From assembly GCA_026387335.1 (NCBI GenBank), contig JAPLLX010000001.1, positions 170,620 through 234,619 on the forward strand: a DNA stretch of 64,000 nt. The letters run 5' to 3'. Positions 4,077 through 59,415 of this stretch are shown here, one piece after another; positions within the stretch are counted from its first letter, which is position 1; each line of letters starts with the position of its first letter. The stretch comes from Candidatus Omnitrophota bacterium (lineage in GTDB: Bacteria > Omnitrophota > Gorgyraeia > Gygaellales > Profunditerraquicolaceae). The notes under the pieces were generated by a model, which saw only the letters and a list, made by a program, of their open reading frames with translations, had not been told where the DNA came from and did no database searches. The position numbers and the translations under genes are program-made.

Positions 4077-4120
4077 TTTTCCCCCGAAAAAGTGTATACG
4101 GCGAAGAGCTAAGGGAAGGC

Positions 4121-6359: not shown

Positions 6360-6361
6360 TA

Positions 6362-7594: not shown

Positions 7595-7708
7595 AATTTT
7601 ATTAAGGAGAAGTCGTTGCGCTACAGGCCTTATCCGTTTTTCTGTCCTGCGCTGCCTGTTCGATAAGCTACGTAAGGCAGAACAAATATCCTCGTTAAGC
7701 TTAATAAG

Positions 7709-8503
7709 ATGAATTGTAATTATCCTAAGAACATATCTTCAATAATGATTTTGGGGACACGGGTTGATGCTGTCCAAATTCCATATATCATTCAATATAT
7801 GGAAGACTGTATCGCTAAAAATATTCATCATAATTATATTATTGTCGCTAATGTCGATACTATAATGCAAAGTAAGCATAATCCCAAAATACAGGAGGCG
7901 GTCAATGCGAGCAGCTTATCAATTCCGGATGGGTTTCCTTTACTAATTATGCAGAGATTACATGGTAATCCACTAAAAAAAAGGGCGTACGGCCCGGATT
8001 TAATGAATGGGTTTCTGAAAATAACTGGAGAAAAAAAATATTCGCATTTCTTCTATGGCGCCACTGAGGACACGCTGGATAATTTAACTAAAAAATTGAA
8101 GGTTTTATTTCCTGGAATAAGGATAGCGGGCGCGTATTCGCCGCCTTTTAGACCACTTACTTTAGATGAGGATGCGAAGATCGTAGAGATGATTAATAAG
8201 GCTGCTCCCAGCGTGTTATGGGTGGGGATAGGTTGTCCTAAACAAGAGCTGTGGATGTATGAACACAGGGAACAACTGAGCGTTCCTGTTATGCTTGGAG
8301 TAGGCGCAGCTTTTGATTTTTTGGCAGGAGTTAAGCCGCAAGCTCCGCGTTGGATAAGGGATAATGGTTTTGAGTGGTTTTTTAGGCTTATTACGGAACC
8401 TAAACGTTTATGGCGCAGGTATTTAATGAATTACCCGCTCTTTGTTTATCATGTGTTAGTAGAATTAGTCTCCAAGCCTATAAAATCATTATTAAATAAG
8501 TAA
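7709..8503 (+). CDS. WecB/TagA/CpsF family glycosyltransferase (GT26)
   Basis: N-terminal ILGTRVDAV and overall WecG/TagA-like sequence. Confidence 0.75.
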   Translation: MNCNYPKNISSIMILGTRVDAVQIPYIIQYMEDCIAKNIHHNYIIVANVDTIMQSKHNPKIQEAVNASSLSIPDGFPLLIMQRLHGNPLKKRAYGPDLMNGFLKITGEKKYSHFFYGATEDTLDNLTKKLKVLFPGIRIAGAYSPPFRPLTLDEDAKIVEMINKAAPSVLWVGIGCPKQELWMYEHREQLSVPVMLGVGAAFDFLAGVKPQAPRWIRDNGFEWFFRLITEPKRLWRRYLMNYPLFVYHVLVELVSKPIKSLLNK

Positions 8504-29562: not shown

Positions 29563-31016
29563 ACATTCTGGGCTTATCTTGCTTTTATCATGATAGCGCC
29601 GCCTGTTTAACCCGCGATGGAGAGATTACCGCAGCCGCTCAGGAAGAACGTTTTAGCCGCAAAAAATACGACCCTCGTTTTCCTACCCAGGCAATTAACT
29701 GGTGCCTTAAATATAACAATGTTAGTTCCCGCGCTTTAGACCGTATAGCTTGCTGTGGAAATAACCTAAGTCTAATTTTTAATCCAAAAGTAAAATTCTA
29801 TAGCCCCCGGGATGCATACCTGGCTGCGGCTTATTATCCTTCGCCCTTTAAAGAAGCGCTTATTCTGGTTAATGATGTTGATACTGGAGTTATCTTTGGC
29901 CGGAGCGAGGGAGAGAGAATCAGTTTAGTTAAAAATTCCATTTTTAAGTATCCTTTAGGCAAGGTTTATGCGCGAGTTAGCCGTTATTTAGGGTTTGGCG
30001 GATATGGCGATGAATTTAAAGTAATGGGTTTAGCTGCTTATGGTAAGCCAATATATAAAGAGAGATTGCTTCCCGCTTCGGCTTCGCCCCGCGGTCGCAA
30101 TGACATAACACAATTCCATATGGATGTTGCCGCTTCCTTACAGGTGGTAATGGAAGAAGAGGTTTTAAAGATTACCGAATATTTATCCGGGCTTAAAATG
30201 AGCGGTAACCTTTGTTTATCTGGAAATATGGCTTTAAATTGCCTGATTAACGCTAAGATTATAAAACAGGGTCTATTTAAAAATATCTGGATTCAACCTG
30301 CCAGCGCTAACGCCGGATGCGCTCTTGGCGCGGCCCTATTAGCCTGGTATGAGAAGAATAAGCGTAATGATGGCCCTGGAATGGACAAGATGAGCGGTAG
30401 TTTTCTTGGCCCGGATTATAATGAAGATTATATTGAGAATTTTTTAAGAAACGAAGGTATTCTTTATAAGAAATTGTACCATACGGATATTGCAAAAATT
30501 GCGGCAGGGTTGATTGCTCAAGGTAAGGTAGTCGGGTGGTTCCAGGGAAGGGCGGAATTTGGGCCCCGGGCCTTGGGGAACCGTTCTATTCTTGGGGATA
30601 GCCGCGACTTACGTATGCATAAGAAGCTTAACCTTGAGGTAAAAAGGCGCGAGGCTTTCCGGCCGTTTGCTCCGACTGTATTGTGGGAGAAAGCGGGTGA
30701 TTATTTTGAATTAGACAGAGAGGATCCGTTTATGCTGTTTACCGCTCAGGTAAAAGAGGAGAAGAAGGCTGAAATTCCCGCGGTAGTCCATATTGATGGC
30801 TCAAGCCGCGTCCAGACTATAAAAAAAGAAAACAATCCTTTGTATTATGATTTAGTAAATGAATTCTATCAAATTACGGGTTGCCCTGTTATAATAAATA
30901 CGTCGTTTAATAGCGGGCCTGAACCGATGGTTTTAAGCCCCGAAGACGCTTACCGCTGCTTTAAGTCATCGGCGATTGATTGTTTAGTTTTAGGGCGTTA
31001 CTTAGTAGAGAAATGA
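29559..31016 (+). CDS. carbamoyltransferase (NodU/CmcH family)
   Basis: N-terminal NILGLSCFYHDSAACLTRDGEI. GTG start in a GTGA overlap. Confidence 0.85.
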   Translation: MNILGLSCFYHDSAACLTRDGEITAAAQEERFSRKKYDPRFPTQAINWCLKYNNVSSRALDRIACCGNNLSLIFNPKVKFYSPRDAYLAAAYYPSPFKEALILVNDVDTGVIFGRSEGERISLVKNSIFKYPLGKVYARVSRYLGFGGYGDEFKVMGLAAYGKPIYKERLLPASASPRGRNDITQFHMDVAASLQVVMEEEVLKITEYLSGLKMSGNLCLSGNMALNCLINAKIIKQGLFKNIWIQPASANAGCALGAALLAWYEKNKRNDGPGMDKMSGSFLGPDYNEDYIENFLRNEGILYKKLYHTDIAKIAAGLIAQGKVVGWFQGRAEFGPRALGNRSILGDSRDLRMHKKLNLEVKRREAFRPFAPTVLWEKAGDYFELDREDPFMLFTAQVKEEKKAEIPAVVHIDGSSRVQTIKKENNPLYYDLVNEFYQITGCPVIINTSFNSGPEPMVLSPEDAYRCFKSSAIDCLVLGRYLVEK

Positions 31017-31921
31017 TGAAGAATATTTTAGCTATACGTAATGATAGGTTTGGGGAGTTTTTACTCAATATTCCGGCGTTTAGGGCACTTAAAGAAAGTT
31101 TTCCTGGCTCCTTGCTTACTTTGGCGGTAAGCCCAGCGGTTAAAGAGCTAGCGGAATGCGTAGAATATGCTGACCAAGTAGTTATTTGGGATGATGATTT
31201 TGAGAAAAATTTAAGGAAGCAGAAATTTGATACTTGCGTTGTTTTAAATCCTACAAAAGAAGCGCACTGGATAAGTTTTTGGGCGGGGATCCCTAAGCGG
31301 GTTGGTTATAATAGGAAATGGGGCATTTTATTGACCCATAAAATACAGGATAATAAAAACTTAGGCCTCAAGCATGAAGTTGAGTATAATTTGGATTTAG
31401 TTGGTCTAATTGGCGCAAAAACTAGCGATAAGATAGTTCGCTTAGGTAAGTTGCCGCAATATAATAAACCTGAGTATGTGGGAGCGATTGCCGTGCACCC
31501 TTTTACAAGTGATACGCTTAAGCAATGGCCCATTGATAAGTTTAGGCAATTAATAAAACGCTTATCTGAAGAGGCTGGGGTAAAAGTGTTGGTTGTCGGT
31601 AGGGATGAAGTCATCGGCAGAGAATATTTTGATAACCTAGGTAGTAGTATTATAAACTTGGTTAACAGGACCTCGCTTGTTGAATTGGCCCAGATCCTTA
31701 AACAATGCAAGTTATTGGTAACTTGTGACAGCGGGCCGATGCATTTGGCCGCGGCAGTGGGGATACCAGTGGTGGCGTTATTTCGAAATGATTTAGCGGG
31801 TAAAACGCCTAAGCGCTGGGGGCCTTGGGGCAAGAGGCATGTGGTGATTGAAAAAGGCCAACTTACAGATATAAGCGTTGAAGAAGTACTTGACAAAGCC
31901 AAATATATCAGGTATAGTTAG
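31013..31921 (+). CDS. glycosyltransferase family 9 (heptosyltransferase-like)
   Basis: ILAIRNDRFGEFLLNIPAFRALKESFP is the GT9 N-terminal signature. ATG overlaps the upstream stop. Confidence 0.75.
   Translation: MMKNILAIRNDRFGEFLLNIPAFRALKESFPGSLLTLAVSPAVKELAECVEYADQVVIWDDDFEKNLRKQKFDTCVVLNPTKEAHWISFWAGIPKRVGYNRKWGILLTHKIQDNKNLGLKHEVEYNLDLVGLIGAKTSDKIVRLGKLPQYNKPEYVGAIAVHPFTSDTLKQWPIDKFRQLIKRLSEEAGVKVLVVGRDEVIGREYFDNLGSSIINLVNRTSLVELAQILKQCKLLVTCDSGPMHLAAAVGIPVVALFRNDLAGKTPKRWGPWGKRHVVIEKGQLTDISVEEVLDKAKYIRYS
31890..31918 (+). promoter_or_regulatory. sigma-70-like promoter TTGACA-17-TATAGT for the AbiEi-like gene
   Basis: TTGACA at 31890-31895, a 17-nt spacer, and TATAGT at 31913-31918. 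The -10 lies inside the palindrome. Confidence 0.55.
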
Positions 31922-31947
31922 TTAACAGTTTTGTTAACTAACTATAC
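31912..31947. promoter_or_regulatory. perfect 16-bp inverted repeat (36-bp palindrome) GTATAGTTAGTTAACA-gttt-TGTTAACTAACTATAC; candidate autoregulatory operator or terminator
   Basis: Read directly. It overlaps the -10 and ends 4 nt before the ATG at 31952. Confidence 0.7.
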
Positions 31948-31951
31948 TCAG

Positions 31952-32545
31952 ATGAACTACACAAAAATTAAGTTATTAAATAAGCTTTACTTTAGCTACC
32001 GGGATATTTCAAGGGTGTTTGGCATATCTCCTGGCTCAGGGCGCGTTGCGGCTACAAGGTTGGTAAAAAGCGGCGACATCACCAGAGTTAAGAGGGATTT
32101 TTATATATTAAGCCAGAGATGGAGCTCTTCTTCTCTGGAAGACCGGTTTATTTTAGCTAACCTACTCCAAGTCCCTTCCTATATATCACTTATGACCGCT
32201 TTAAGTTATTATGAGATCACTACTCAGGTGCAGCGAGATTTTATAGAATCTGTGGGTTACTATAGGACTAAGCTGGTTGAAGTTAAGGAAAGTAGTTTCA
32301 ATTACAGTAAAATAAATAGAAAATTATATTTTGGGTTCGCAAAAATTAAGGGATTTTTTATCGCTAGCCCGGAAAAGGCGTTTCTTGACGCGATCTATCT
32401 TAAGTCTTTAAAAAAATATAATTTTGACCTTACGTCTATTGATCCTAGCAAGTTGAATATTAAGCGGATTAAACTAATGTCCGGAAAATATCCGTTATTA
32501 ACCAGGAAACTATTATTAAAATATGGATATCTTAAGAAAACATGA
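31952..32545 (+). CDS. AbiEi-like antitoxin / winged-HTH transcriptional regulator
   Basis: N-terminal wHTH signature ISRVFGISPGSGRVAATRLVKSGDITRVKRDFYIL. It is immediately upstream of the NTase gene. Confidence 0.6.
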   Translation: MNYTKIKLLNKLYFSYRDISRVFGISPGSGRVAATRLVKSGDITRVKRDFYILSQRWSSSSLEDRFILANLLQVPSYISLMTALSYYEITTQVQRDFIESVGYYRTKLVEVKESSFNYSKINRKLYFGFAKIKGFFIASPEKAFLDAIYLKSLKKYNFDLTSIDPSKLNIKRIKLMSGKYPLLTRKLLLKYGYLKKT

Positions 32546-33191
32546 AATATTTGAGATAGAGGTCCTGGAAAAGCTCAAGAATGGAGATTTCTTGAGGCCG
32601 CTTATTTTTATCGGCGGCACAATGCTTAGGCTTTGTTATGAGCTGAGCCGCTATTCCACGGATCTTGATTTCTGGTTTGTTAAAAAAACAGACCAAAAGG
32701 GTTATTTTAATAAACTCAAAAGTTATTTGAGCGGGTTTTATGAAGTTACTGACGCGCAGTTAAAGTTTAATAGCTTGCTTTTAGAGCTACGCAGTAAGAA
32801 TTATCCCAAGCGGCTTAAAATTGAAATCAGGAAAGAGCTTAGGGAGTGTGATATTCAGGAAAGAATCGCCTTTTCAAAATATAGCACTAACCAAGTTGTT
32901 TTAAGGGTGATTGTCCTGGAAGAAGCAATGAAGTATAAGATTATGGCGGCTTTAGATAGAAAAGATATAAGAGATTTTTTTGATTTGGAGTTTTTGCTGC
33001 GGCAAGGTGTTGAGCTTAAGGCCAAAAGCAGTGATTTAGAAGCCTTGAGGGATATTGCAGAGGGTTTTAAAGATAAGGATTATAAGGTCGTTTTAGGCTC
33101 GCTTTTGGAGGCAGATTTGCGTAATTATTACGTGAAGAATAAATTTGAATTCTTAATAGCGAAGATAGATAACTTGGGGAAGAAAATATGA
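32523..33191 (+). CDS. AbiEii/AbiGii-family nucleotidyltransferase (putative type IV TA toxin)
   Basis: FIGGTMLRLCYELSRYSTDLDFWF is the Pol-beta NTase G[GS]...DhD motif of the DUF1814/AbiEii family. Confidence 0.65.
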   Translation: MDILRKHEIFEIEVLEKLKNGDFLRPLIFIGGTMLRLCYELSRYSTDLDFWFVKKTDQKGYFNKLKSYLSGFYEVTDAQLKFNSLLLELRSKNYPKRLKIEIRKELRECDIQERIAFSKYSTNQVVLRVIVLEEAMKYKIMAALDRKDIRDFFDLEFLLRQGVELKAKSSDLEALRDIAEGFKDKDYKVVLGSLLEADLRNYYVKNKFEFLIAKIDNLGKKI

Positions 33192-34582
33192 ATTACGCGG
33201 TGATTTTAGCAGGAGGGGTGGGAAGCAGATTCTGGCCTTTTTCGCGTGAGCTCGAGCCAAAGCAGTTTATGCGCCTGATTGGCGAAGAAAGCCTGCTGCA
33301 GTCCACATTTAAGCGCCTGAAGGGCATAGTTACGCCCAAGAATACCTTTATTATTACAAATGATATCTATTTTTATGAATTATTAAATCAGATAAAGGGC
33401 TATGGGATACCGGAAGGCAATATTATCCTGGAGCCTGAAGGAAAAAATACCGCTCCGGCAATCGGCCTTTGCGCGAAATTAATCTCTAAACTTGATAAAA
33501 ACGCAACTTTAATAGTTTTGCCAGCTGACCATTATATAAAAGGCCTGTTTAATTTTAAGAGAGCTATTAAAAATGCGATTGAAGCGGCGCGCAATGATTT
33601 ATTAGTTACTATTGGGATTAAGCCGAATAAGCCTTCAACAGCGTATGGGTATATAAAAATAAAGTCAAAAGTCAAAAGTCAAAAGTCAAAAGTCTATTCC
33701 GTGGAGAAATTTCTGGAGAAGCCGGGTTTAGATAAAGCGAAAAAATACTTAAAAGATAAAAGTTTCTTCTGGAACAGCGGGATGTTTATCTGGAAGGCGG
33801 ATATATTTTTAGGAGAGGTAAAGAAATATTTGCCGGATTTGTTCAAACGTCTGGATTCCATAAAATCAGTAAATGATATTAAGAAAATCTGGCCGAAGAT
33901 AAAATCAATCTCGGTTGATTATGGGATAATGGAGCATTCTAAGAAGATCGCGCTTATTCCGGCAAACTTTTATTGGACGGATTTGGGAAGTTGGGATGCG
34001 CTGGCGGAAATATTGCCGAAAGATAAGAAGGGGAATATTACTAACAGCGATACTTTGAATGTGGATAGCCAGGGCGTATGCGTATTTTCCAGAGGCAACA
34101 GGTTGGTTTCAACCATCGGTGTTAATAATATGGTTATCGCGGATACCCCAGATGCTTTGTTAGTTTGTGACAGGAATAGGACTCAGGATGTGAAACAGCT
34201 GGTGGAGAGGTTAAAGACGCTTAAGCGTAAAGAGCATCAGGTGCATTTGACTGAACGTAGGCCTTGGGGGTCGTTTACTGTTTTGCAGGAGGGGCCAGGT
34301 TTTAAGATCAAGCTTATTGAGCTTGCGCCAAAAAAACGCCTTAGTCTACAAAGACATAAAAATCGCGCTGAGCATTGGGTAGTAGTTTCCGGTATGGCCA
34401 AGACAACTCGCGCCGGCAAGGTTTCATTTGTGCGCAGTAATGAGAGTGTGTATATACCTAAGGGTAGGAAGCATCGCTTGGAAAATCCTTTGCGTATACC
34501 TTTGAAGATTGTGGAAGTGCAAACAGGCGCGTATTTGGAAGAGGATGATATTGAGAGATTTGAGGATGATTTTAAAAGGTAA
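33188..34582 (+). CDS. manC: mannose-1-phosphate guanylyltransferase / mannose-6-phosphate isomerase (bifunctional ManC)
   Basis: N-terminal NTP-transferase domain (ILAGGVGSRFWPFS) and C-terminal cupin PMI domain. ATGA overlap with the upstream NTase gene. Confidence 0.8.
   Translation: MNYAVILAGGVGSRFWPFSRELEPKQFMRLIGEESLLQSTFKRLKGIVTPKNTFIITNDIYFYELLNQIKGYGIPEGNIILEPEGKNTAPAIGLCAKLISKLDKNATLIVLPADHYIKGLFNFKRAIKNAIEAARNDLLVTIGIKPNKPSTAYGYIKIKSKVKSQKSKVYSVEKFLEKPGLDKAKKYLKDKSFFWNSGMFIWKADIFLGEVKKYLPDLFKRLDSIKSVNDIKKIWPKIKSISVDYGIMEHSKKIALIPANFYWTDLGSWDALAEILPKDKKGNITNSDTLNVDSQGVCVFSRGNRLVSTIGVNNMVIADTPDALLVCDRNRTQDVKQLVERLKTLKRKEHQVHLTERRPWGSFTVLQEGPGFKIKLIELAPKKRLSLQRHKNRAEHWVVVSGMAKTTRAGKVSFVRSNESVYIPKGRKHRLENPLRIPLKIVEVQTGAYLEEDDIERFEDDFKR
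33661..33694 (+). repeat. heptanucleotide tandem repeat (AAAGTCA/AAAAGTC) x about 4.9, inside the manC coding sequence
   Basis: Read directly: aaagtcaaaagtcaaaagtcaaaagtcaaaagtc. It encodes KSKVKSQKSKV. Confidence 0.8.
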
Positions 34583-34595
34583 ACCAGATTATTAG

Positions 34596-34624
34596 TTGAC
34601 ATAAGTTATACAACAATATATATT
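34596..34624 (+). promoter_or_regulatory. sigma-70-like promoter TTGACA-17-TATATT
   Basis: TTGACA at 34596-34601 and TATATT at 34619-34624. It overlaps an inverted repeat. Confidence 0.55.
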
Positions 34625-34646
34625 ACTATATACATTGTTGTATAAC
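34605..34646. promoter_or_regulatory. inverted repeat GTTATACAACAAT ... ATTGTTGTATAAC (13 bp perfect, extendable to 19 bp with 1 mismatch); candidate operator
   Basis: Read directly. It lies between the -35 and the RBS of the small gene. Confidence 0.6.
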
Positions 34647-34659
34647 AGGAGTGTGTTAT

Positions 34660-34980
34660 ATGAGAGGCTTAATTAAGGGTGTGTTGTCAGAAGAATTGGG
34701 TAACTCTCTGCGTATGAAAAAAAGATATGTAGAGGAGCTCGATAAGCTTCCTAAGGGGTGCCTCTCCCGTAAAAAAATTAAAGGACACTATTATTTTTAT
34801 TTAGTTCAAAGACATAAAGGTAAGTTTCTATACAATTATAAGGGTAGGCTTTCGCCCGATGAAGTTAAAAAACATAAGTCTTTACAGCTTAAGCGCGCGG
34901 GTTACCGTAAGTCTTTAAGCAAACTAAATAAACAGATTAAGTTTTTACGGAGTACTTTACGTGGAAAACAGCCAGTATAA
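34660..34980 (+). CDS. small basic protein (possible antitoxin/DNA-binding partner)
   Basis: ATG 34660 lies 8 nt after AGGAG. 106 aa, Lys/Arg-rich. Confidence 0.45.
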   Translation: MRGLIKGVLSEELGNSLRMKKRYVEELDKLPKGCLSRKKIKGHYYFYLVQRHKGKFLYNYKGRLSPDEVKKHKSLQLKRAGYRKSLSKLNKQIKFLRSTLRGKQPV

Positions 34981-35641
34981 ATTATGTACAGAAGTCTTAA
35001 AAAGGCTGGATGGTTCTGGGATATTAAAACACTTAGTTCTTATTGGAAGCTGGTGCGTTCCTTTTTATAAAGAATATTTTTCAGATGTAGAGTATTCTAC
35101 TTCTATAACAACCAGAGATCTCGATTTCTTTGTTCCCCTACCGCTTGTAACAAAAAACAAAATTGATATTGAGAAATTGTTAGATGGACTTGGTTTTGTC
35201 ATTGATTTTAAGGGTTCTGACGGTTACATTAAGTTATACCATCCTGAGCTTATTCTAGAGTTTCTGGTTACGGAAAAAGGCGTGGGTTTAAATAAGCCTT
35301 ATAAATTGGATCAACTTGGGATTAATGCCCAGCCTTTACGGTTTCTTAATTTACTTACAGCGAAACTTATAAATGTTATGGTTGAAGGAATTAGAATTAA
35401 TTTGCCTCATCCCGCCCTTTTTGCTTTACACAAGTTGATTGTATCAGATAGAAGGATAAAAAAGGACAAAAAAGTCAAAGATTTAGATACGGCAATTAGA
35501 ATAATAAGGGCATTGCTTGATAAAGGCGAAGCTAATAAATTGAAATTTTTCTTTATGGGTTTTACTCCTAAGTTGCGTAACAGAATTACGGCTGTATTGA
35601 AAGATGACGGCCAATTAGATTTAGTGGATGTGCTTATATGA
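34961..35641 (+). CDS. nucleotidyltransferase-fold protein (second NTase, TA-toxin-like)
   Basis: LIGSWCVPFY ... TTRDLDFFVP carries the NTase G-S ... D-x-D motif. Confidence 0.5.
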   Translation: MENSQYKLCTEVLKRLDGSGILKHLVLIGSWCVPFYKEYFSDVEYSTSITTRDLDFFVPLPLVTKNKIDIEKLLDGLGFVIDFKGSDGYIKLYHPELILEFLVTEKGVGLNKPYKLDQLGINAQPLRFLNLLTAKLINVMVEGIRINLPHPALFALHKLIVSDRRIKKDKKVKDLDTAIRIIRALLDKGEANKLKFFFMGFTPKLRNRITAVLKDDGQLDLVDVLI

Positions 35642-36708
35642 TAAAATTGTTAATTATTAACCCTTTTGGCATCGGAGATGTTTTATTCACCACGCCGGTA
35701 ATCAAGGCGATAAAGGAAAAATACGGGAATAGTTTTATCGGTTACTGGTGTAATCGCAGAGTGCGGCCATTATTGGAAGCAAACCCTGGAATCAACAAGC
35801 TTTTTGATTTAAACCGGGGGGATCTTAAAAAAATATACCAAGAATCATTTTTTAGCGGGCTTGGGGAAACTTTAAAGCTCGGATGGGAGATTAAAAAAGG
35901 TAACTTTGACATTTGTTTTGACTTTTCGCTGGACTACCGCTATAGTTTATTTGCAAAAATAATCGGCATACGCAAAAGAATAGGTTTTAATTATAAGGGC
36001 CGGGGCAGGTTTCTTACGGATAGAGTTGATTTAGATGGTTATAGCGCTAAGCATGTTGTGGAGTATTATCTGGGGTTGCTTAGCTTTCTGGGTATAGAAA
36101 CAGAAGATAAATCTTTGGATTTGATTGTTTCTTCTGTTGCTCAAACAAAGGCTCAGAATATACTTAGCTCAAAAGGGATTGAAAGAGGCGACTTGTTGGT
36201 TGGTATTGCTCCCGGAGCCGGCGGGAGTTGGGGTAAGGACGCAAGTTACAAGCATTGGCCGCCATTAAAGTTCGCCCAGGTAGCGGATAAACTTATGGAT
36301 AAATTTAAAGTAAAAGTAGTAATTCTGGGAGATGAAACCGAACAGCCAATTTCGGATGTAATTATTAATTCTATGCGCCAAAAACCCATAGATTTGACCG
36401 GAAAGATTAAGCTGGAGGTACTCCCGGCAATAATCAAAAGTTTAAACCTTTTGCTATCCAATGACGGCGGACCGATGCATATGGCCGTTGCTTTAGGTAT
36501 AAAAACTGTTTCGGTATTCGGGCCGGTGAGCGAGCGGGTTTACGGGCCGTATCCGGATAGCCGCAACCACGTAGTTTTAAAATGGGATATGGAGTGCCGG
36601 CCATGCTATAAGAATTTTAGGCTACCCGTTTGCGATAAAGATAAGGAATGCTTGAGGCAGGTGAGCGCTGATGCGGTGTTTGATGCAGCGGAAAGGTTGT
36701 TAAGTTAA
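35638..36708 (+). CDS. glycosyltransferase family 9 (heptosyltransferase-like), second copy
   Basis: IINPFGIGDVLFTTPVIKAIKE is the GT9 signature. Confidence 0.75.
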   Translation: MIKLLIINPFGIGDVLFTTPVIKAIKEKYGNSFIGYWCNRRVRPLLEANPGINKLFDLNRGDLKKIYQESFFSGLGETLKLGWEIKKGNFDICFDFSLDYRYSLFAKIIGIRKRIGFNYKGRGRFLTDRVDLDGYSAKHVVEYYLGLLSFLGIETEDKSLDLIVSSVAQTKAQNILSSKGIERGDLLVGIAPGAGGSWGKDASYKHWPPLKFAQVADKLMDKFKVKVVILGDETEQPISDVIINSMRQKPIDLTGKIKLEVLPAIIKSLNLLLSNDGGPMHMAVALGIKTVSVFGPVSERVYGPYPDSRNHVVLKWDMECRPCYKNFRLPVCDKDKECLRQVSADAVFDAAERLLS

Positions 36709-37836: not shown

Positions 37837-38581
37837 TTTATCGGTTGTCGTATTGACTAAGAATGAAGAGTCTTGTATTGCCGAGTGCTTAGAGTCAGTG
37901 AAGTGGGCAAATGAAATTATTGTGGTAGATGATGAGAGTACGGATAAGACTGTTGAGATTGTCAAAAGATATACCACTAAAATTTTTCATCGCAAGATGG
38001 GTATTGAAGGAAAACACCGGAATTGGGCGTATGAACAGGCAGCTAATTTGTGGGTATTAAGCTTGGATGCTGACGAAAAGGTCACTCCGGAATTAAAAAT
38101 TGAAATTGAAGAAGCGATTAAGTCCCAGGAATTTATTGCATTTGATATACCGTTGCGTAATTACATCGGCAACTATTGGGTAAAATATGGCGGATGGTAT
38201 CCGGCGTCCAAGGTAAGGCTTTTTAGGAAGGATAAGTTTAAGTATGAAGAAGCAGAGGTCCACCCTCGGATAATCCTGGATGGAAAATGCGGCCACTTAA
38301 AAAGCGATATTATCCACAAGGGTTATCCGGATCTAGAGCATTTTATGAATAGTGTTAACCGGCAGTCAACCTTAGAGGCGAAGAAATGGATAAATACCGG
38401 ACGGAAAATGACTTTACTCTGGATTACCTGGCGCACAGTGGATAGATTTTTTAGGAGATATTTTGGCAAAAAAGGGTATAAAGACGGAATATATGGGTTT
38501 GTGATTGCTTATTTTGATTCATTGTATCAGATATTAAGTTACGTCAAGTTCAGAGAAATGCAGAAACAATTAAAAAAATGA
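37829..38581 (+). CDS. glycosyltransferase family 2
   Basis: LSVVVLTKNEE ... IIVVDDESTD ... LDADE. Confidence 0.7.
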   Translation: MVNLSVVVLTKNEESCIAECLESVKWANEIIVVDDESTDKTVEIVKRYTTKIFHRKMGIEGKHRNWAYEQAANLWVLSLDADEKVTPELKIEIEEAIKSQEFIAFDIPLRNYIGNYWVKYGGWYPASKVRLFRKDKFKYEEAEVHPRIILDGKCGHLKSDIIHKGYPDLEHFMNSVNRQSTLEAKKWINTGRKMTLLWITWRTVDRFFRRYFGKKGYKDGIYGFVIAYFDSLYQILSYVKFREMQKQLKK

Positions 38582-39114
38582 AAGTTGTGTTTTTAGATAG
38601 AGATGGGGTAATTAATAAGTATCCGGGTGATAAGCTGTACGTCACTTCGTTAAAAAAGTTTTGTTTTTTGCCCGGCGCAAAGAAAGCAATTGCCAAATTA
38701 ACAAAAGCCGGTTTTAAAATATTTATTGCTTCTAATCAGGCAGGTATTGGAAGAGGAATATACGCTAAGCGCACGCTGGCTGCGATTACCGCTAAGATGC
38801 TCTCAGGGATTGAGAAGGCCGGTGGCAAAATTACTAAAGTTTATTATTGCATACATCGTAAGGACGAAGGTTGCCTGTGTCGCAAACCTAAGCCAGGATT
38901 GCTTAAAAAGGCCTCCAAAGAATTCAAATTCAGCCTTAAAAATTCCTATTTTATAGGCGATACTATCCGCGATGTGCTTACTGCGCATGCAGCAGGTTGT
39001 AAATCCATTCTGGTGTTAAACGGTAAGGAAAAACTGGTAAATCAAAAGAACTGGGAAGCAAAGCCGGATTTTGTGTTTAAAGACCTCTTGGAAGTAGCGA
39101 AATTTTTAATTTAA
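38578..39114 (+). CDS. gmhB: D-glycero-D-manno-heptose 1,7-bisphosphate 7-phosphatase
   Basis: HAD-IIIA motifs FLDRDGVIN, ASNQAGIGRG, the Zn-binding CLCRKPKPG loop, and GDTIRD. Confidence 0.8.
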   Translation: MKVVFLDRDGVINKYPGDKLYVTSLKKFCFLPGAKKAIAKLTKAGFKIFIASNQAGIGRGIYAKRTLAAITAKMLSGIEKAGGKITKVYYCIHRKDEGCLCRKPKPGLLKKASKEFKFSLKNSYFIGDTIRDVLTAHAAGCKSILVLNGKEKLVNQKNWEAKPDFVFKDLLEVAKFLI

Positions 39115-39156
39115 AACGAGATTGCTTCGGGCACTTTGCGCCCTCGCAATGACGAG

Positions 39157-40248
39157 ATGAAGGTATTGATTACTTATGCTTCTGCCGGAGCTGGCCATCG
39201 CAGGGTAGCCGAAGCAGTATATAATTATTTTAAGGAAAACCGGCCGGAAGTTGAATTAAAGATAGTTGATATACTGGCGCAAACCAATGCCTTATTCAGG
39301 TTTGATTATACCAAAGGTTATACATTTCTTATAAGGCATGCGGTTGCATTGTGGCACTTCGCATTTTGGCTGACTGAGTTTAAGGTTTTTAGGCCTTTAA
39401 CGCGTTTAATCGCCTCCACGATCAACTCCATCAATACGCGCGGTTTTGTTTCATATTTAGTCAGCGAAAACCCGGATTATATAATCTCCACGCATTTCCT
39501 GCCTTCAGAAATCGCCGGCCGCCTAAAATTAAAAAATAAGATAAGCTCAAAGTTAGTTACCATAATTACGGATTTTGGAGTGCATCCATTCTGGATAGCT
39601 AAAGGCACTGATTTTTACGTCGTGGCATCGGATTTTACTAAAGATAGGCTTTTAGCCGAAGGCGTGCCGGAAGATAAGGTAAAGGTATTTGGCTTGCCTT
39701 CCGACGCTAAATTCTTAAAACAGTTTGACAGGCTGGCTTTGGGCAATAAGCTGGGAATTCAGGTGGATAAATTCACGGTTTTACTTATGACGGGATCTTT
39801 TGGCACTGGCCCGCTTGAGGATATTGCCGAATTATTAGCTCCCGAGGCGCAGGTTATCCTTGTGTGCGCGGGTAATAAAAAGTTATACGCAAGATTAACC
39901 GCCAGAAACCTAGCCAATGTAAAGGTTTTTGGATTTGTAAATAACGCCGAAGAGCTTATGGCGGTTTCCGATGTTATTGTAACTAAGCCCGGCGGCTCCA
40001 CTATCGCTGAGATACTTAATATGGAGCTGGCCCCGATATTTATATCTATGATCCCCGGCCAGGAAGAAGCAAACGTCCGGGCCTTAAAACAATTCGGGAT
40101 AGGCGCTAGCCCTAAAGGTATCCCTGAGGTAAAGGATTTAATCCTAGATTTAAAAAACCACCCTGAAAAACTTAAGGAAATAAAAGAAAGAATCCAAAAA
40201 ATAAAGAAGCCTTTCAGCTGCCAGGAGTTATCCGGTGTTATACGCTAA
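39157..40248 (+). CDS. GT28-family glycosyltransferase (MGDG synthase/UgtP/MurG-like)
   Basis: N-terminal VLITYASAGAGHRRVAEAV and a C-terminal GT-B domain. Confidence 0.65.
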   Translation: MKVLITYASAGAGHRRVAEAVYNYFKENRPEVELKIVDILAQTNALFRFDYTKGYTFLIRHAVALWHFAFWLTEFKVFRPLTRLIASTINSINTRGFVSYLVSENPDYIISTHFLPSEIAGRLKLKNKISSKLVTIITDFGVHPFWIAKGTDFYVVASDFTKDRLLAEGVPEDKVKVFGLPSDAKFLKQFDRLALGNKLGIQVDKFTVLLMTGSFGTGPLEDIAELLAPEAQVILVCAGNKKLYARLTARNLANVKVFGFVNNAEELMAVSDVIVTKPGGSTIAEILNMELAPIFISMIPGQEEANVRALKQFGIGASPKGIPEVKDLILDLKNHPEKLKEIKERIQKIKKPFSCQELSGVIR

Positions 40249-52553: not shown

Positions 52554-52556
52554 AAT

Positions 52557-52609
52557 AAATAGGGACAGCGACCGTTTTTCTATGGGAAAAACGGTCGCTG
52601 TCCCTATTT
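52557..52609. repeat. hairpin repeat element copy C (same 23-bp arms, 7-nt loop)
   Basis: Read directly. It lies immediately after the small ORF stop. Confidence 0.8.
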
Positions 52610-52618
52610 AAAGTGGCC

Positions 52619-56795: not shown

Positions 56796-57851
56796 ATGAA
56801 TATACTCGTAATTAATAGCGGAAGTTCATCCATAAAATATAAGCTCTTTAAGATGCCCCAGAAAAAACTTTTAACTAAGGGCGTAATCGAGCATATTGGC
56901 GAAGAGGGCTCGGATATCCAGGATCACTATACCGGACTAAAGCTTATTTTAAGTAAAGTTAATTCCGTTGACGCTGTGGGGCATAGGGTAGTTCACGGAG
57001 CAGAGAGTTTTAAGAAACCGGCGTTAATTAATCCTTTGGTTATTAGAAAAATCCGGCAGTGTTGCGCCATAGCGCCGTTGCATAATCCGGCAAACCTGGC
57101 CGGGATACTTGCCTGCAATAAGTTACTGGCAGGCATAAAACAGGTCGCGGTATTTGATACCGCCTTCCACCAAAGCCTTCCGGATTACGCTTATATTTAC
57201 GGACTCCCTTATGAATATTATACTAAGCTTTGTATACGCAAATACGGTTTTCACGGAACCAGCCATGAATATGTGGCCCACGAAGCCGCGCGCCTATTAA
57301 AGTCGCCCATAAATAAATTAAAATTAATCACCTGTCATTTAGGTAATGGCAGTAGTATTACCGCTGTAGATAGAGGCAAATCCATAGATACGAGTATGGG
57401 TTTTACTCCTTTAGAAGGCCTGGTTATGGGGACGCGCTGCGGAGACGTGGATCCGGCCTTAATTACCCATATCATGAAAAAGAAAAAACTGGATATTGCC
57501 GCAATGAATACTTTGTTAAACCGGGAAAGCGGGCTTAAGGGGATATCCGGCATAAGCAATGATGTGCGTATTTTGGAAGAAAAGTCTAAGCTGGGGAATA
57601 AACGCGCGAGGCTGGCGCTAGAAATATTTATTTATCGCATCAAAAAATATATTGGCGCTTATACGGGAATTATGTCCGGCTGCGATGCCCTTGTTTTTAC
57701 CGGTGGTATCGGAGAAAACCAGAAGAGGGTAAGGGGAAAAATTATCCGGGGCCTCTTTAGCCACCTGAAGAAAAAGCCCAAAATACTTATTATTCCGACT
57801 AATGAAGAGCTAATGATAGCTAAACAGACTTATTTGTTGATCAATGGTTAA
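56796..57851 (+). CDS. ackA: acetate kinase
   Basis: ILVINSGSSSIKYKLF ... HLGNGSSITA. Confidence 0.85.
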   Translation: MNILVINSGSSSIKYKLFKMPQKKLLTKGVIEHIGEEGSDIQDHYTGLKLILSKVNSVDAVGHRVVHGAESFKKPALINPLVIRKIRQCCAIAPLHNPANLAGILACNKLLAGIKQVAVFDTAFHQSLPDYAYIYGLPYEYYTKLCIRKYGFHGTSHEYVAHEAARLLKSPINKLKLITCHLGNGSSITAVDRGKSIDTSMGFTPLEGLVMGTRCGDVDPALITHIMKKKKLDIAAMNTLLNRESGLKGISGISNDVRILEEKSKLGNKRARLALEIFIYRIKKYIGAYTGIMSGCDALVFTGGIGENQKRVRGKIIRGLFSHLKKKPKILIIPTNEELMIAKQTYLLING

Positions 57852-57933
57852 AGCGCTAAAGCGGTATGGAATAGTTTTGTTTATTTTAAGCTTAGGCTGC
57901 GTAATTTCCGGCTACGCCAAGGAGGTGGGTCAC

Positions 57934-58443
57934 ATGAAAAAAGCGGTCATGATTATTGCCCACGACGGTTTTCGCGACGAGGAGTTACTGGATACTAAAG
58001 CAGTTTTAGAAAAAAATGGCGTAGAAGTCCAGGTCGCTTCAACCGCACTTGGCTTGGCCAGGGGTAAACTGGGGGCGCAGGTGAGCCCCGATATGCTATT
58101 TAACGCTATAAAGGTAAAAGATTTTGACGCCATTATATTTGTAGGCGGCCCGGGCGCGCTGGATTATTGGAATAACGCTTTAGCGCATAAACTGCTTAAG
58201 GAGTCTGTTTCTTTAGGCAAAGTCACTGCCGGGATTTGCAGCGCGGTCGTTACCTTGGCCAAGTCAGGAATACTTAAAGAAAAGCGGGCAACGGTTTTTC
58301 CCGGGGATTTTCAGGAGCTAATTGATAATGGAGCAAAATATACCGCCAGCCACGTAGAGATAGATGGCGATATTATAACGGCTGACGGGCCTTATGCCGC
58401 TAAAGATTTTGGAGAGGCAATTGTTAAGGCGTTAAAAAAATGA
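57934..58443 (+). CDS. DJ-1/PfpI-family protein
   Basis: ATG 57934 is preceded by GGAGGTGGG. GICSAV nucleophile-elbow-like motif. The extension back to 57844 overlaps ackA and is not preferred. Confidence 0.7.
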   Translation: MKKAVMIIAHDGFRDEELLDTKAVLEKNGVEVQVASTALGLARGKLGAQVSPDMLFNAIKVKDFDAIIFVGGPGALDYWNNALAHKLLKESVSLGKVTAGICSAVVTLAKSGILKEKRATVFPGDFQELIDNGAKYTASHVEIDGDIITADGPYAAKDFGEAIVKALKK

Positions 58444-58447
58444 CAAT

Positions 58448-58522
58448 AGGGACGGTTCTCAACTCAAAGCTAAAGTGTCCCCTAACAGGGGACACTTTGA
58501 GATTGGCTTGAGAACCGTCCCT
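58448..58522. repeat. nested palindromic element (15-bp outer stem AGGGACGGTTCTCAA/TTGAGAACCGTCCCT enclosing a 12-bp inner hairpin AAAGTGTCCCCT/AGGGGACACTTT); shares the AATAGGGAC start with the other hairpin elements
   Basis: Read directly. Intergenic between the DJ-1 gene and panD. Confidence 0.7.
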
Positions 58523-58541: not shown

Positions 58542-58892
58542 ATGTTAAGGACAGTTTTAAAATCTAAAATTCACCGGGCTATAGTCACTGAAGCAAATCT
58601 TTATTATGAGGGCAGCATCACTATTGATAGCAAGTTAATGCGGGCGGCGGATATTCTGGAGCATGAAAAGGTCGAGGTTTTAAATCTGAATAATGGCCAG
58701 CGCCTGGAAACTTACGCTATTAAAGGAAAACCGGGAAGCGGAGTAGTCTGCCTTAATGGTCCTGCAGCCCGCGGAGCCTGCAGCGGCGATACAGTGGTTA
58801 TACTTACTTATGTCAGCGCTGAAGATAAAGAAGCAATAAAAATAAAACCCAAAATAATTAAAGTAGATGAAAAAAACCGGATTAAGAGTTAG
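58542..58892 (+). CDS. panD: aspartate 1-decarboxylase
   Basis: [38 protein letters not shown]. Confidence 0.9.
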
Positions 58893-59415
58893 AAAATTTG
58901 GAGATTTGGTTTTAAGAAAAAAGTCAGTTCCGGTAAAAAAGATCACCCCTGAGCATGGCGAGTTCTTAAGTAAAATGGCCCAGCTTATGTATGAGGATGA
59001 AGGCGTAGGGTTAGCCGCGCCTCAGGCAGGGTTAAATCAGGCCATGATTGTGGTGGATATAGGAAAAGGGCTGTATAAATTAATCAATCCCAAGATTACT
59101 AAACAGCAGGGTGCGCAGGTAAATAAAGAGGGTTGCCTAAGTGTCCCCGGGGTATGCATTAATGTAAGGCGCGCGAAGAGAATTAAATTAGAGGCTCTCG
59201 ATGAAAGCGGCCAGCCCTTAAATATTGAAGCTGAAGGGTTGCTCGCCTGCGTCTTTCAGCATGAAATTGACCACCTGCGCGGAAAACTTATCGTGGATTA
59301 CGCGTCATTATTAGAAAAGATTAAATTCGCTAAAATCCTTAAGGAATTAAAAAAGCACGCTAAAGATGAAAAGTTGCCTGAATCAAAAACAGAATCTTGC
59401 AGTCTGCAATTGTAG
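58867..59415 (+). CDS. def: peptide deformylase
   Basis: EGCLSVPG and QHEIDHLRG metal-binding motifs. Confidence 0.85.

What the first reader, a model, noticed from the sequence alone, without database searches (positions are those of the whole stretch)
31890..33191. AbiEi/AbiEii-like type IV toxin-antitoxin module inserted inside the glycan operon, with a perfect 36-bp palindromic operator over its promoter, and translationally coupled to manC
The first gene has the AbiEi wHTH signature (RLVKSGDITRVKRDFYIL). The second is an AbiEii/DUF1814 Pol-beta NTase (GGT...DLDF). A TTGACA-17-TATAGT promoter is overlapped by a flawless 16-bp inverted repeat ending 4 nt before the start codon, matching AbiEi-style negative autoregulation. 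The NTase stop overlaps the manC ATG (ATGA), so sugar-nucleotide supply is transcribed through a TA or abortive-infection cassette. The palindrome may also terminate the upstream GT9 gene.
Basis: partly seen in the sequence, partly recalled or inferred. Interest (0 to 1): 0.6.

Follow-up and report, generated by a model that had tools for sequence, protein, structure and literature searches.

The report
AbiE toxin-antitoxin cassette inside glycan operon
This is a real but ordinary member of the well-known AbiE toxin-antitoxin (phage-defence) family, carrying its own promoter and operator, and it sits as a mobile insert at a junction of a surface-sugar operon in an uncultured Omnitrophota bacterium.

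Summary
The two genes are abiEi (31952..32545) and abiEii (32523..33191). Both pass Pfam thresholds, and the toxin matches a PADLOC AbiEii model full length (4e-91). NCBI already annotates this exact toxin protein as AbiEii/AbiGii family in a Candidatus Omnitrophica MAG.

The 16+4+16 inverted repeat over the TTGACA-17-TATAGT promoter is not chance. The same architecture, with core TTAACA-N4-TGTTAA and covarying outer arms, lies upstream of abiEi in about 65 loci from several phyla. Its symmetry is kept at the DNA level, not the RNA level, so it is best read as the AbiEi autorepression operator. It is not an intrinsic terminator.

Orthologous operons show a polymorphic insertion:
- In 24 of 43 relatives the GT9 gene's stop overlaps the manC start (ATGA).
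- Seven relatives carry abiE at that junction.
- The closest relative carries a methyltransferase there instead.

The ATGA coupling to manC is therefore the ancestral junction, reused by the cassette. A second nucleotidyltransferase cassette (34596..35641) flanks manC on the other side.

Verdict: a new member of a known kind, of modest interest. The "type IV" label is being revised to type VII.

The parts
31890..31895 (+). -35 hexamer TTGACA of the abiE promoter. It also encodes L-D-K in the C-terminal tail of the upstream GT9 gene.
   Evidence: Nearly invariant across 65 loci (information content 1.35-2.0 bits per column). Read as codons.
31913..31918 (+). -10 hexamer TATAGT, 17 nt from the -35, inside the left arm of the inverted repeat.
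   Evidence: The consensus TATAnT is conserved in alignment A2.
31912..31947 (.). Inverted-repeat operator: arms GTATAGTTAGTTAACA / TGTTAACTAACTATAC with a 4-nt spacer and core TTAACA-N4-TGTTAA. This is the predicted binding site for two AbiEi wHTH domains.
   Evidence: not chance. (conserved, covarying, DNA-level symmetry). (the only exact core match in the window).
31952..32545 (+). abiEi, the antitoxin and autorepressor: 197 aa, an N-terminal winged HTH plus a C-terminal domain, with no Shine-Dalgarno sequence upstream.
   Evidence: The start codon is conserved in about 70 loci. AlphaFold model pLDDT 86, with top Foldseek hits 6Y8Q and 1ZEL.
32523..33191 (+). abiEii, a DUF1814 Pol-beta-type nucleotidyltransferase toxin of 222 aa. 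Motifs: G31-G32, R43-x-S45-x-D47-L-D49, K139...R146, R150-D151-x-x-D154.
   Evidence: Motif definitions come from PMC3985639.
33188..33191 (+). ATGA stop/start overlap between abiEii and manC. This is the ancestral GT9|manC junction, reused.
   Evidence: About 20 empty-site relatives have the GT9 stop overlapping the manC ATG in the same way. The overlap recurs in other abiE-filled loci.
31875..33187 (+). Extent of the segment with no counterpart in the closest relative L087, which has a 250-aa SAM methyltransferase gene in the same interval.
   Evidence: blastn homology to L087 ends at window 31874 and resumes at 33188.
30980..31921 (+). Upstream GT9 (heptosyltransferase-family) gene. Its last codons (..LDKAKYIRYS*) are laid over the abiE promoter and left arm.
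33188..34582 (+). manC (mannose-1-phosphate guanylyltransferase / mannose-6-phosphate isomerase), the downstream gene coupled to abiEii.

Best explanation
The region is a complete AbiE-family two-gene cassette. AbiEi is a COG5340-type antitoxin and repressor. AbiEii is a DUF1814 Pol-beta nucleotidyltransferase toxin. The cassette belongs to a compact subfamily (about 197 + 217-222 aa) that is common in Omnitrophota, Desulfobacterota, Nitrospirota and neighbouring phyla.

Shown here:
- family membership by profile and fold;
- all four catalytic motifs intact;
- a promoter and operator architecture conserved across phyla;
- presence/absence polymorphism at an operon junction.

Inferred by analogy with S. 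agalactiae AbiE and M. tuberculosis MenAT:
- Transcription starts about 7 nt after the -10, near 31925, giving an unstructured leader of about 27 nt.
- Two AbiEi winged-helix domains bind the two half-sites, whose core hexamers are 10 bp apart. This occludes the -10 and start site and represses the operon.
- AbiEii adds nucleotides to tRNA 3' ends and stops translation.
- AbiEi neutralises AbiEii, probably by inducing its auto-phosphorylation on S45. S45 is the counterpart of T65 in S. agalactiae AbiEii.
- Release of the toxin on phage infection, or on loss of the cassette, arrests growth.

In this genome the cassette was imported into the ancestrally ATGA-coupled GT9|manC junction of a conserved glycan operon. 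The import was most likely by homologous recombination through the flanking genes. The insertion has been made seamless. Its promoter is written over the 3' codons of the GT9 gene, and the toxin's stop reuses the manC ATGA. As a result manC translation is now coupled to toxin translation, and the operon gains an autorepressed internal promoter.
For: Profiles: Pfam AbiEi_4 and AbiEii both score above their gathering cut-offs. PADLOC gives AbiEi 6e-26 and AbiEii 4.3e-91 full length. NCBI names the identical toxin protein AbiEii/AbiGii family.

Fold: the AbiEi model (pLDDT 86) has 6Y8Q and 1ZEL as its top two PDB hits, probability 1.00.

Motifs: G31 G32, R43, S45, D47, D49, K139, R146, R150, D151 and D154 are invariant in 28 homologues at 60-100% identity. 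They match the residues whose mutation abolished toxicity in S. agalactiae (G49, R63, D67, D69, K173, R180, D192) and the T65 phosphoacceptor position.

Gene pair: every locus whose contig reaches upstream of abiEii has abiEi directly upstream, aligned from residue 1 in most.

Operator: the layout TTGACA-17-TATAnT plus AATTAACA-N4-TGTTAATT is found in about 65 loci. 83.9% of cells are paired against 31-38% for slid partners, and 0 of 500 shuffles reach the observed pairing or covariation score. G.T and A.C mismatches are equally frequent (91 against 85), as expected for DNA symmetry rather than an RNA stem.

Known precedent: S. agalactiae AbiEi binds two 23-bp inverted repeats 3 bp apart over its promoter. 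There the start site is 26 nt before the ATG and the -35/-10 spacing is 17 bp.

Insertion: the junction census is 24 empty, 7 abiE and 12 other. The empty sites are ATGA-coupled. L087 is the closest relative, with 79-83% identity at four-fold sites downstream, yet it lacks abiE. abiEi is less diverged at four-fold sites (69-70%) than the flanking genes (38-51%) against L121 and L007.
Against: There is no experimental evidence for this subfamily on toxicity, DNA binding or phage defence.

AbiEi is far below the NCBIfam equivalog cut-off (21.8 against 150 bits). Neither it nor a profile of its family finds 6Y8Q or 1ZEL by sequence, so functional transfer rests on fold and on Pfam/PADLOC hits. 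The global TM-score to 6Y8Q is low (0.36), and only one of five AlphaFold models reached pLDDT 86.

The half-site geometry (16-21 bp arms, 4-bp gap) differs from S. agalactiae (23 bp, 3-bp gap).

The shuffle control does not correct for relatedness. Pairs and pair types with changes on both sides were not above the shuffles (306/500 and 191/500).

No Shine-Dalgarno sequence precedes abiEi.

The four-fold-site counts are small (40-60 sites per gene).

No close homologue was found on sequenced plasmids or phages.
Confidence: 0.8

Rival explanations
1. The inverted repeat works mainly as RNA. In transcripts reading through from the GT9 gene it forms a hairpin that terminates or pauses transcription, or that masks the abiEi start codon 4 nt downstream. 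On this view it insulates the cassette from operon transcription and is not primarily a protein operator.
For: A read-through transcript folds into a -22.4 kcal/mol hairpin (z = -5.8, 0 of 200 shuffles as stable) whose base reaches the AUG. The leader from the predicted own start site is unstructured (-4.7 kcal/mol, z = 0.55). Only read-through RNA would therefore be affected. This could coexist with operator function.
Against: No T-run follows the stem, and the terminator scan did not report it. Mismatch types show no excess of G.U over A.C (91 against 85). The left arm contains the conserved -10, so it lies upstream of the cassette's own transcript. The repeat is equally conserved in loci where the upstream gene is on the opposite strand or hundreds of bases away. 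No Rfam family matches.
Confidence: 0.12
2. The pair has been domesticated as part of the glycan pathway, for example as a regulator plus a nucleotidyltransferase acting on a sugar or carrier. On this view it is no longer a toxin-antitoxin or defence module, and its tight coupling to manC reflects a shared function.
For: In Omnitrophota the cassette recurs inside glycan clusters at three different junctions: GT9|manC, HAD|MGDG-synthase-type GT, and methyltransferase|acyltransferase. It is repeatedly ATGA-coupled to the downstream biosynthetic gene. abiEi is more conserved than its neighbours.
Against: Most orthologous operons lack it (24 empty and 12 other of 43), and so does the closest relative. 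Across phyla the neighbours are heterogeneous: 148 Pfam families among 109 neighbours, including integrases. About 70 of 77 cassettes have no coupled downstream gene. The self-contained promoter and operator travel with the pair. The residues needed for toxicity in characterised AbiEii proteins are all retained. Omnitrophota polysaccharide clusters are reported to be hypervariable cargo regions.
Confidence: 0.05
3. The cassette is an inert passenger. It is a selfish addiction module, or a decaying remnant, that landed in a permissive intergenic hot spot. It gives the host no defence and has no regulatory effect on manC.
For: The same junctions also accept other cargo: a methyltransferase, a reversed NTase-XRE cassette, and module 2. 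TA modules commonly accumulate in variable regions (established knowledge). No phage or plasmid link was found.
Against: It is not decaying. Both ORFs are intact, the motifs are invariant, and the family is under strong purifying selection with 60-100% identity across phyla. The repeated re-creation of the ATGA coupling suggests selection to keep downstream expression. An addiction role is compatible with the best explanation and is not really a separate mechanism.
Confidence: 0.25

Closest known systems
Streptococcus agalactiae AbiE (AbiEi SAG1284 / AbiEii SAG1285; AbiEi structure PDB 6Y8Q)
   Same: Both are bicistronic, with the antitoxin gene first and overlapping the toxin gene. AbiEi has an N-terminal winged HTH plus a C-terminal domain, and 6Y8Q is the best fold hit. 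AbiEii carries Pol-beta motifs I-IV, including R-x-(S/T)-x-D-h-D. Both have a sigma-70-type promoter with a 17-bp spacer, overlapped by a pair of inverted repeats with a short gap. The start site, mapped there and predicted here, lies about 26-27 nt before the ATG.
   Different: Sequence identity is very low: AbiEi is 16% identical in the structural alignment and is not detectable by HMM against the PDB. The toxin is shorter (222 aa). The half-sites are 16-21 bp with a 4-bp gap, against 23 bp with a 3-bp gap. The gene overlap is 23 nt, against 4 nt. The candidate phosphoacceptor is Ser, not Thr. This cassette is chromosomal and embedded in an operon, whereas the S. agalactiae one sits on an ICE. 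Nothing has been tested experimentally here.
Mycobacterium tuberculosis MenAT systems and Rv2827c/Rv2826c (PDB 1ZEL, 6Y56)
   Same: Both pair a DUF1814 NTase toxin with a COG5340 antitoxin. Rv2827c is the second-best fold hit and gives the best TM-score (0.60) for AbiEi. The MenT3 motif RFSTDLDF aligns with RYSTDLDF here. This places S45 at the position of the MenT3 S78 phosphoacceptor.
   Different: Rv2827c has a larger C-terminal domain and four inverted repeats with 13-bp gaps and negative cooperativity. The toxins are about 290 aa. The hosts and genomic contexts are unrelated.
Helicobacter pylori JHP933 (PDB 4O8S / 4OK0)
   Same: It is the closest solved structure to this AbiEii subfamily by sequence (profile E = 5.6e-7 over residues 25-161). 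It shares the GxT...RFSxDLDF and RDxFD motifs.
   Different: JHP933 is a stand-alone virulence-associated NTase with no described AbiEi partner or operator.
Lactococcus lactis pNP40 AbiE (the original abortive-infection system)
   Same: It belongs to the same two-gene family by Pfam and PADLOC naming. It is the source of the phage-defence phenotype attributed to the family.
   Different: It is plasmid-borne in a Firmicute. No sequence comparison was made here, and defence is not shown for this subfamily.

Membership tests
AbiE toxin-antitoxin / abortive infection system (AbiEi + AbiEii) | The toxin is a DUF1814 / PF08843 nucleotidyltransferase. | tested here: met
   Pfam AbiEii scores 64.9 bits against a cut-off of 22.5. 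PADLOC PDLC02330 gives 4.3e-91 over residues 1-217 of 219 profile positions. NCBI names the identical protein AbiEii/AbiGii family.
AbiE toxin-antitoxin / abortive infection system (AbiEi + AbiEii) | Catalytic motifs I-IV are present: hG[GS], RxxxDhD, KxxAxxxR, +DxxD. Their mutation abolishes toxicity in S. agalactiae AbiEii. | tested here: met
   G31 G32; R43, D47, D49; K139, R146; R150, D151, D154. All are invariant in alignment A1. Motif definitions and mutants come from PMC3985639.
AbiE toxin-antitoxin / abortive infection system (AbiEi + AbiEii) | The antitoxin is a COG5340-type protein with an N-terminal winged HTH and a C-terminal domain. | tested here: met
   Pfam AbiEi_4 scores 28.5 bits against a cut-off of 25, over residues 13-53. 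PADLOC AbiEi gives 6e-26 over residues 9-155. The top Foldseek hits are 6Y8Q and 1ZEL at probability 1.00.
AbiE toxin-antitoxin / abortive infection system (AbiEi + AbiEii) | AbiEi is an equivalog of the characterised antitoxin (NCBIfam NF047376 TAA_AbiEi). | tested here: not met
   The score is 21.8 bits against a cut-off of 150. It is a divergent subfamily, not an equivalog.
AbiE toxin-antitoxin / abortive infection system (AbiEi + AbiEii) | The operon is bicistronic, with the antitoxin gene immediately upstream of and overlapping the toxin gene. | tested here: met
   The genes overlap by 23 nt. The pair is conserved in all related genome loci whose contig reaches upstream of abiEii.
AbiE toxin-antitoxin / abortive infection system (AbiEi + AbiEii) | Inverted repeats overlap the promoter and are bound by AbiEi for negative autoregulation. 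| tested here: inconclusive
   The inverted repeat over the -10 is present, conserved and covarying. Binding and repression cannot be tested with these tools.
AbiE toxin-antitoxin / abortive infection system (AbiEi + AbiEii) | The toxin arrests growth and the cognate antitoxin reverses this. | not testable with these tools
   This needs expression assays.
AbiE toxin-antitoxin / abortive infection system (AbiEi + AbiEii) | The system confers an abortive-infection phenotype against phage. | not testable with these tools
   There is no cultured host. No homologue was found in the phage collection.
Type VII mode of neutralisation (antitoxin-induced toxin auto-phosphorylation, as in MenAT1/3 and S. 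agalactiae AbiE) | A Ser/Thr phosphoacceptor lies two residues before the first catalytic Asp of motif II. | tested here: met
   S45 in R43-Y-S45-T-D47-L-D49 is invariant in A1. It aligns with MenT3 RFSTDLDF. T65/D67 in S. agalactiae and S78 in MenT3 are described. Phosphorylation itself is not testable here.
Rho-independent (intrinsic) terminator, for the palindrome | A G+C-rich stem is followed directly by a run of T. | tested here: not met
   The stem has 4 G-C pairs of 16 and is followed by TCAGATGAAC. The terminator scan does not report it.

The most novel reading that the evidence does not exclude
In this Omnitrophota clade the gene junctions of the surface-glycan operon, above all the two flanking manC, may act as preferred landing sites for Pol-beta-nucleotidyltransferase toxin cassettes. 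Three kinds occur there: AbiE, a reversed AbiEii-XRE pair, and DUF6788 + NTP_transf_8. Each brings a strong palindrome-controlled promoter, and each tends to become translationally fused (ATGA) to the next biosynthetic gene. If this is selected rather than incidental, the cassettes would act as operon-internal addiction or control devices. They would tie GDP-mannose and glycan synthesis, and so the surface that phages would have to recognise, to toxin-antitoxin homeostasis. They would also lock in particular glycan-cluster variants.
Probability: 0.1. Interest if true: 0.6.

Novelty: new member of a known kind. Interest (0 to 1): 0.3.

Why it matters
The cassette itself adds little. AbiE is one of the most abundant defence and TA systems, and this toxin is already named as such in GenBank.

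The analysis adds three things:
1. A cross-phylum operator consensus for a compact and so far uncharacterised AbiE subfamily: (G/A)TATAnTTAATTAACA-N4-TGTTAATTAnnTATA(C/T), overlapping the -10. This is directly testable by EMSA.
2. A clean natural example of how a TA cassette is threaded into a tightly packed operon without breaking it. The promoter is written over the upstream gene's last codons, and the toxin's stop reuses the ancestral ATGA.
3. Evidence that glycan-operon junctions in Omnitrophota are recombination hot spots that collect nucleotidyltransferase toxin cassettes. This fits reports of hypervariable polysaccharide clusters in the phylum.

It also flags an uncharacterised DUF6788 + NTP_transf_8 pair next door as a TA candidate.

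Tried and rejected
- PDB sequence searches with AbiEi alone and with a 33-sequence profile found nothing relevant. Fold comparison was needed.
It was repeated with database homologues.
- NCBIfam gave only a sub-threshold AbiEi hit and nothing for AbiEii.
- An Rfam scan of 30900-35800 at E <= 1 found no RNA family.
- tblastn of AbiEii against plasmids found only three distant hits at about 30% identity. Against phages it found none. A link to sequenced mobile elements could not be shown.
- The intrinsic-terminator reading was rejected.
- RNA-hairpin selection was rejected on mismatch symmetry.
- Purely vertical inheritance of the cassette was rejected. The closest backbone relative lacks it, and four-fold-site identity in abiEi exceeds that of the flanks.
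- A search for further operator copies in the window found only one 1-mismatch core match at 21146, which is within chance.
- I considered whether the -35 was recruited from the GT9 codons (F/L-N/D-K, for example TTTGATAAA in empty sites) or came with the cassette. It could not be decided, because TTGACA at 17 bp is universal in the family but the flanking K-V-K codons look GT9-derived.
- Literature searches for NTP_transf_8 / PF12281 / DUF6788 found nothing useful.
Full report
**1. Observation**

The region reads as described. abiEi runs 31952..32545 (197 aa) and abiEii runs 32523..33191 (222 aa). They overlap by 23 nt. The abiEii TGA overlaps the manC ATG at 33188-33191.

A perfect inverted repeat with 16-nt arms (31912-31927 / 31932-31947) and a 4-nt spacer ends 4 nt before the abiEi ATG. 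It overlaps the -10 of a TTGACA-17-TATAGT promoter at 31890..31918.

It is the second-longest perfect inverted repeat in the 64-kb window. Forty Markov simulations never exceeded 13-nt arms.

The stop codon of the upstream GT9 gene (30980..31921) lies inside the left arm. The promoter is therefore written over that gene's last codons.

The surrounding genes form a co-directional glycan-biosynthesis cluster. It contains DegT aminotransferases, GT2s, a PMT_2-like membrane protein, a carbamoyltransferase, two GT9s, ManC, a HAD hydrolase and an MGDG-synthase-type GT.

**2. Identity of the genes**

Gene 2 passes Pfam AbiEii (64.9 bits against a cut-off of 22.5). It matches one PADLOC AbiEii model end to end (4.3e-91). 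Gene 1 passes Pfam AbiEi_4 (28.5 against 25) and matches PADLOC AbiEi models over residues 9-155 (6e-26). The NCBIfam AbiEi equivalog is far from met (21.8 against 150).

The identical toxin is in GenBank as 'nucleotidyl transferase AbiEii/AbiGii toxin family protein [Candidatus Omnitrophica bacterium]'. The identical antitoxin is 'hypothetical protein NTW18_01085', although close relatives are named AbiEi family.

Sequence searches of the PDB did not find AbiEi structures. An AlphaFold model built on 42 homologues (pLDDT 86) has S. agalactiae AbiEi (6Y8Q) and M. tuberculosis Rv2827c (1ZEL) as its two best Foldseek matches. For the toxin, the nearest solved relative is H. pylori JHP933, and MenT3 aligns over motif II.

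All residues whose mutation abolishes S. agalactiae AbiEii toxicity have counterparts here. These are G31/G32, R43, D47, D49, K139, R146 and D151, and all are invariant in 28 homologues. S45 sits two residues before D47. This is where T65 of S. agalactiae AbiEii sits (two before D67) and where S78 of MenT3 sits (two before the first Asp of RFSTDLDF); both are phosphorylated.

**3. The palindrome is a conserved DNA operator**

A genome-collection scan with an AbiEii profile returned 80 loci from Omnitrophota, Planctomycetota-labelled MAGs, Nitrospirota, Desulfobacterota, Calditrichota, Acidobacteriota and others. Every locus whose contig reaches upstream of abiEii has abiEi directly upstream. 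In most, the alignment starts at residue 1, which fixes the ATG at 31952.

The 75 nt upstream of abiEi share one architecture. TTGACA is followed by 17 nt, then (G/A)TATAnT, running into AATTAACA-N4-TGTTAATT. The mirror of the -10 region then ends about 3-5 nt before the ATG, and there is no Shine-Dalgarno sequence.

Several distant loci have even longer perfect arms of different sequence (L056 and L079 with 21 nt, L070 with 18, L029 with 15). The symmetry is therefore maintained while the outer sequence drifts.

On a 65-sequence alignment, 83.9% of cells are complementary, against 31-38% when partners are slid by 1-3 columns. No shuffle reaches the observed pairing or covariation score. That shuffle control ignores relatedness, and the counts of pairs and pair types with double changes were not above the shuffles.

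Among non-complementary cells, G.T/T.G (91) and A.C/C.A (85) are equally common. That is the expectation for a double-stranded DNA site, not for a + strand RNA stem.

The layout parallels the mapped S. agalactiae abiE promoter. That promoter has -35 and -10 elements 17 bp apart, a start site 26 nt before the ATG, and two 23-bp inverted repeats 3 bp apart. Two AbiEi monomers bind those repeats cooperatively and repress the operon.

I therefore read 31912-31947 as the AbiEi operator. The two core hexamers are 10 bp centre to centre, which places them on one face of the helix (inference).

**4. Not a terminator**

The stem has only 4 G-C pairs and is followed by TCAGATGAAC. The terminator scan does not call it. 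The repeat is also conserved where no co-directional gene lies upstream.

A read-through transcript would form a -22.4 kcal/mol hairpin abutting the AUG. The transcript from the predicted own start site is unstructured. A secondary role in damping abiEi translation from read-through RNA cannot be excluded, but the mismatch statistics do not support it.

**5. The cassette is an insertion at an ancestrally coupled junction**

A manC-anchored scan of metagenome contigs gave 80 loci with the same backbone: GT9a-manC-GT9b-DegT-GT2. The GT9a|manC junction is visible in 43 of them. It is empty in 24, holds abiE in 7, and holds other DNA in 12. The other DNA is mostly a SAM methyltransferase gene of about 750 nt.

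In the empty sites the GT9a stop overlaps the manC ATG as ATGA. In the window, and in L120, L008/L121, L098, L010 and L144, the AbiEii ORF is extended by a few codons to end on that same ATGA. In L108, L112 and L011 it ends on the ATGA of a carbamoyltransferase gene.

The GT9a tail reads ..EEVFNKAKEMLKK* in empty loci and ..EEVLDK(A/V)KNIRYS* in filled ones. LDK is the -35, and IRYS-stop is the -10 plus left arm.

L087 is the closest backbone relative, with 94-95% amino-acid identity and 79-83% four-fold-site identity in GT9b, DegT and GT2. It has the methyltransferase instead of abiE. Its homology to the window stops at 31874 and resumes at 33188. GT9a and manC are noticeably more diverged from L087 (69% and 59% at four-fold sites) than the genes further downstream.

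Against L121 and L007, abiEi is less diverged at four-fold sites (69-70%) than the flanking genes (38-51%). Site numbers are small. Even so, the pattern points to exchange of the junction segment by homologous recombination among related lineages, not strict vertical descent.

In other Omnitrophota-type loci the same cassette sits at other junctions of the cluster. These are HAD|MGDG-synthase GT in L014 and L025, and methyltransferase|acyltransferase in L013. Outside that group the neighbours are heterogeneous: 148 Pfam families in 109 neighbours, including integrases. About 70 of 77 cassettes there have no tightly coupled downstream gene. Recent preprints report that polysaccharide clusters in Omnitrophota are hypervariable cargo regions.

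**6. Mechanism**

Shown: family membership by profile and fold, intact motifs, a conserved operator, and insertion polymorphism.

Inferred from the characterised relatives:
- AbiEi represses P_abiE by occupying the -10 and start-site region.
- AbiEii is a tRNA 3'-end nucleotidyltransferase that blocks translation.
- AbiEi neutralises it. According to the 2026 preprint this happens by inducing auto-phosphorylation of the Ser/Thr before motif II, which makes the family type VII rather than type IV.
- Phage infection or loss of the cassette frees the toxin.

Consequences specific to this locus are also inferred. manC translation is coupled to abiEii translation. The operon acquires an autorepressed internal promoter. 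A repressor-bound operator now sits in the path of operon read-through.

**7. Comparison and novelty**

This is a member of the AbiE family by every sequence-testable criterion except equivalog-level similarity of the antitoxin. It belongs to a compact subfamily with no characterised representative. I rate it a new member of a known kind.

The new elements are the subfamily operator consensus, the seamless threading into an operon, and the hot-spot behaviour of the manC-flanking junctions. Interest is modest (0.3).

**8. Seen alongside**

- A second two-gene cassette follows manC (34596..35641). It consists of a 106-aa DUF6788-type protein (start 34660) and an NTP_transf_8 nucleotidyltransferase.
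- That second cassette has the same regulatory logic as abiE. It has TTGACA-17-TATATT overlapped by 19-nt arms with a 4-nt spacer, conserved with covarying arms in L099 and L125. It also has an ATGA overlap with the next GT9 gene.
- It is absent from 46 of 52 orthologous junctions and from L087.
- A third cassette type, an AbiEii-like NTase followed by an XRE-HTH protein, occupies the GT9a|manC junction in L090. In L006 it follows abiE.

Noticed in passing
window 34596-35641: A second two-gene nucleotidyltransferase cassette lies directly after manC. It encodes a 106-aa protein (ATG 34660; homologues are all 106 aa, and some hit PF20586/DUF6788) and a 226-aa NTP_transf_8 (PF12281) protein. It has its own TTGACA-17-TATATT promoter (34596-34624), overlapped by an inverted repeat with 19-nt arms (34605-34623 / 34628-34646, 4-nt spacer), and an AGGAG ribosome-binding site. 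Its stop overlaps the next GT9 gene's ATG as ATGA (35638-35641). It is absent from L087 and from 46 of 52 orthologous junctions. The operator arms covary in L099 and L125. The small protein models confidently (pLDDT 92) as helix, three strands, helix, with no significant PDB match, and it has no PADLOC hit. It is a candidate uncharacterised TA pair.
   Followed up: partly
L090 1392-2611; L006 6721-7940: A third cassette type occupies the same GT9|manC junction in relatives. It is an AbiEii-family NTase (236 aa, PF08843 5e-22) followed, not preceded, by a 170-aa protein with a C-terminal XRE-type HTH. In L006 it sits in tandem after abiE.
   Followed up: partly
L014 about 4808-7869; L025 about 3101-6109; L013 about 4585-7300: In L014 and L025 the same abiE cassette is found at another junction of the same kind of glycan cluster, between the HAD hydrolase and the MGDG-synthase-type GT (window homologues 38578..39114 and 39136..40248). 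In L025 it is ATGA-coupled to the GT. In L013 it lies between a methyltransferase and a hexapeptide acyltransferase.
   Followed up: partly
window 52556-52610: This is the longest perfect inverted repeat in the window, with 25-nt arms (TAAATAGGGACAGCGACCGTTTTTC) and a 5-nt loop. It lies in the gap between the ORFs ending at 52205 and starting at 52817.
   Followed up: no
window 58472-58498: A perfect 12-nt-arm inverted repeat (AAAGTGTCCCCT / AGGGGACACTTT, 3-nt loop) lies between the ORFs 57844..58443 and 58867..59415. It may be a terminator.
   Followed up: no
window 1-64000: Every ORF that tiles the 64-kb window gap-free lies on the + strand. All - strand ORFs of 120 aa or more are nested inside + strand ORFs. 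No tRNA genes were found. Stop/start overlaps are common.
   Followed up: no
L012 5340-6729 / L097 (same contig): In this relative the GT9 tail has an in-frame TAA before the NIRYS codons (..DKV*NIRYS*), so the GT9 gene ends earlier. The AbiEii frame also appears to run 68 nt into manC. This may be a lost stop codon or an artefact of my frame extension.
   Followed up: no
window 30980-31874 and 33188-34597 against L087: GT9a and manC are clearly more diverged from the closest relative L087 (four-fold-site identity 69% and 59%) than the genes further downstream (79-83%). This suggests that a recombination tract extends beyond the cassette into both flanking genes.
   Followed up: partly
L007 6655-6694; L093 5221-5261; L101: In loci where AbiEii is not ATGA-coupled, its stop is followed by a short G+C-rich hairpin-like sequence (GATTGCCGCG...GCGGCGGGCTCG). 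This may be the cassette's own terminator remnant.
   Followed up: no
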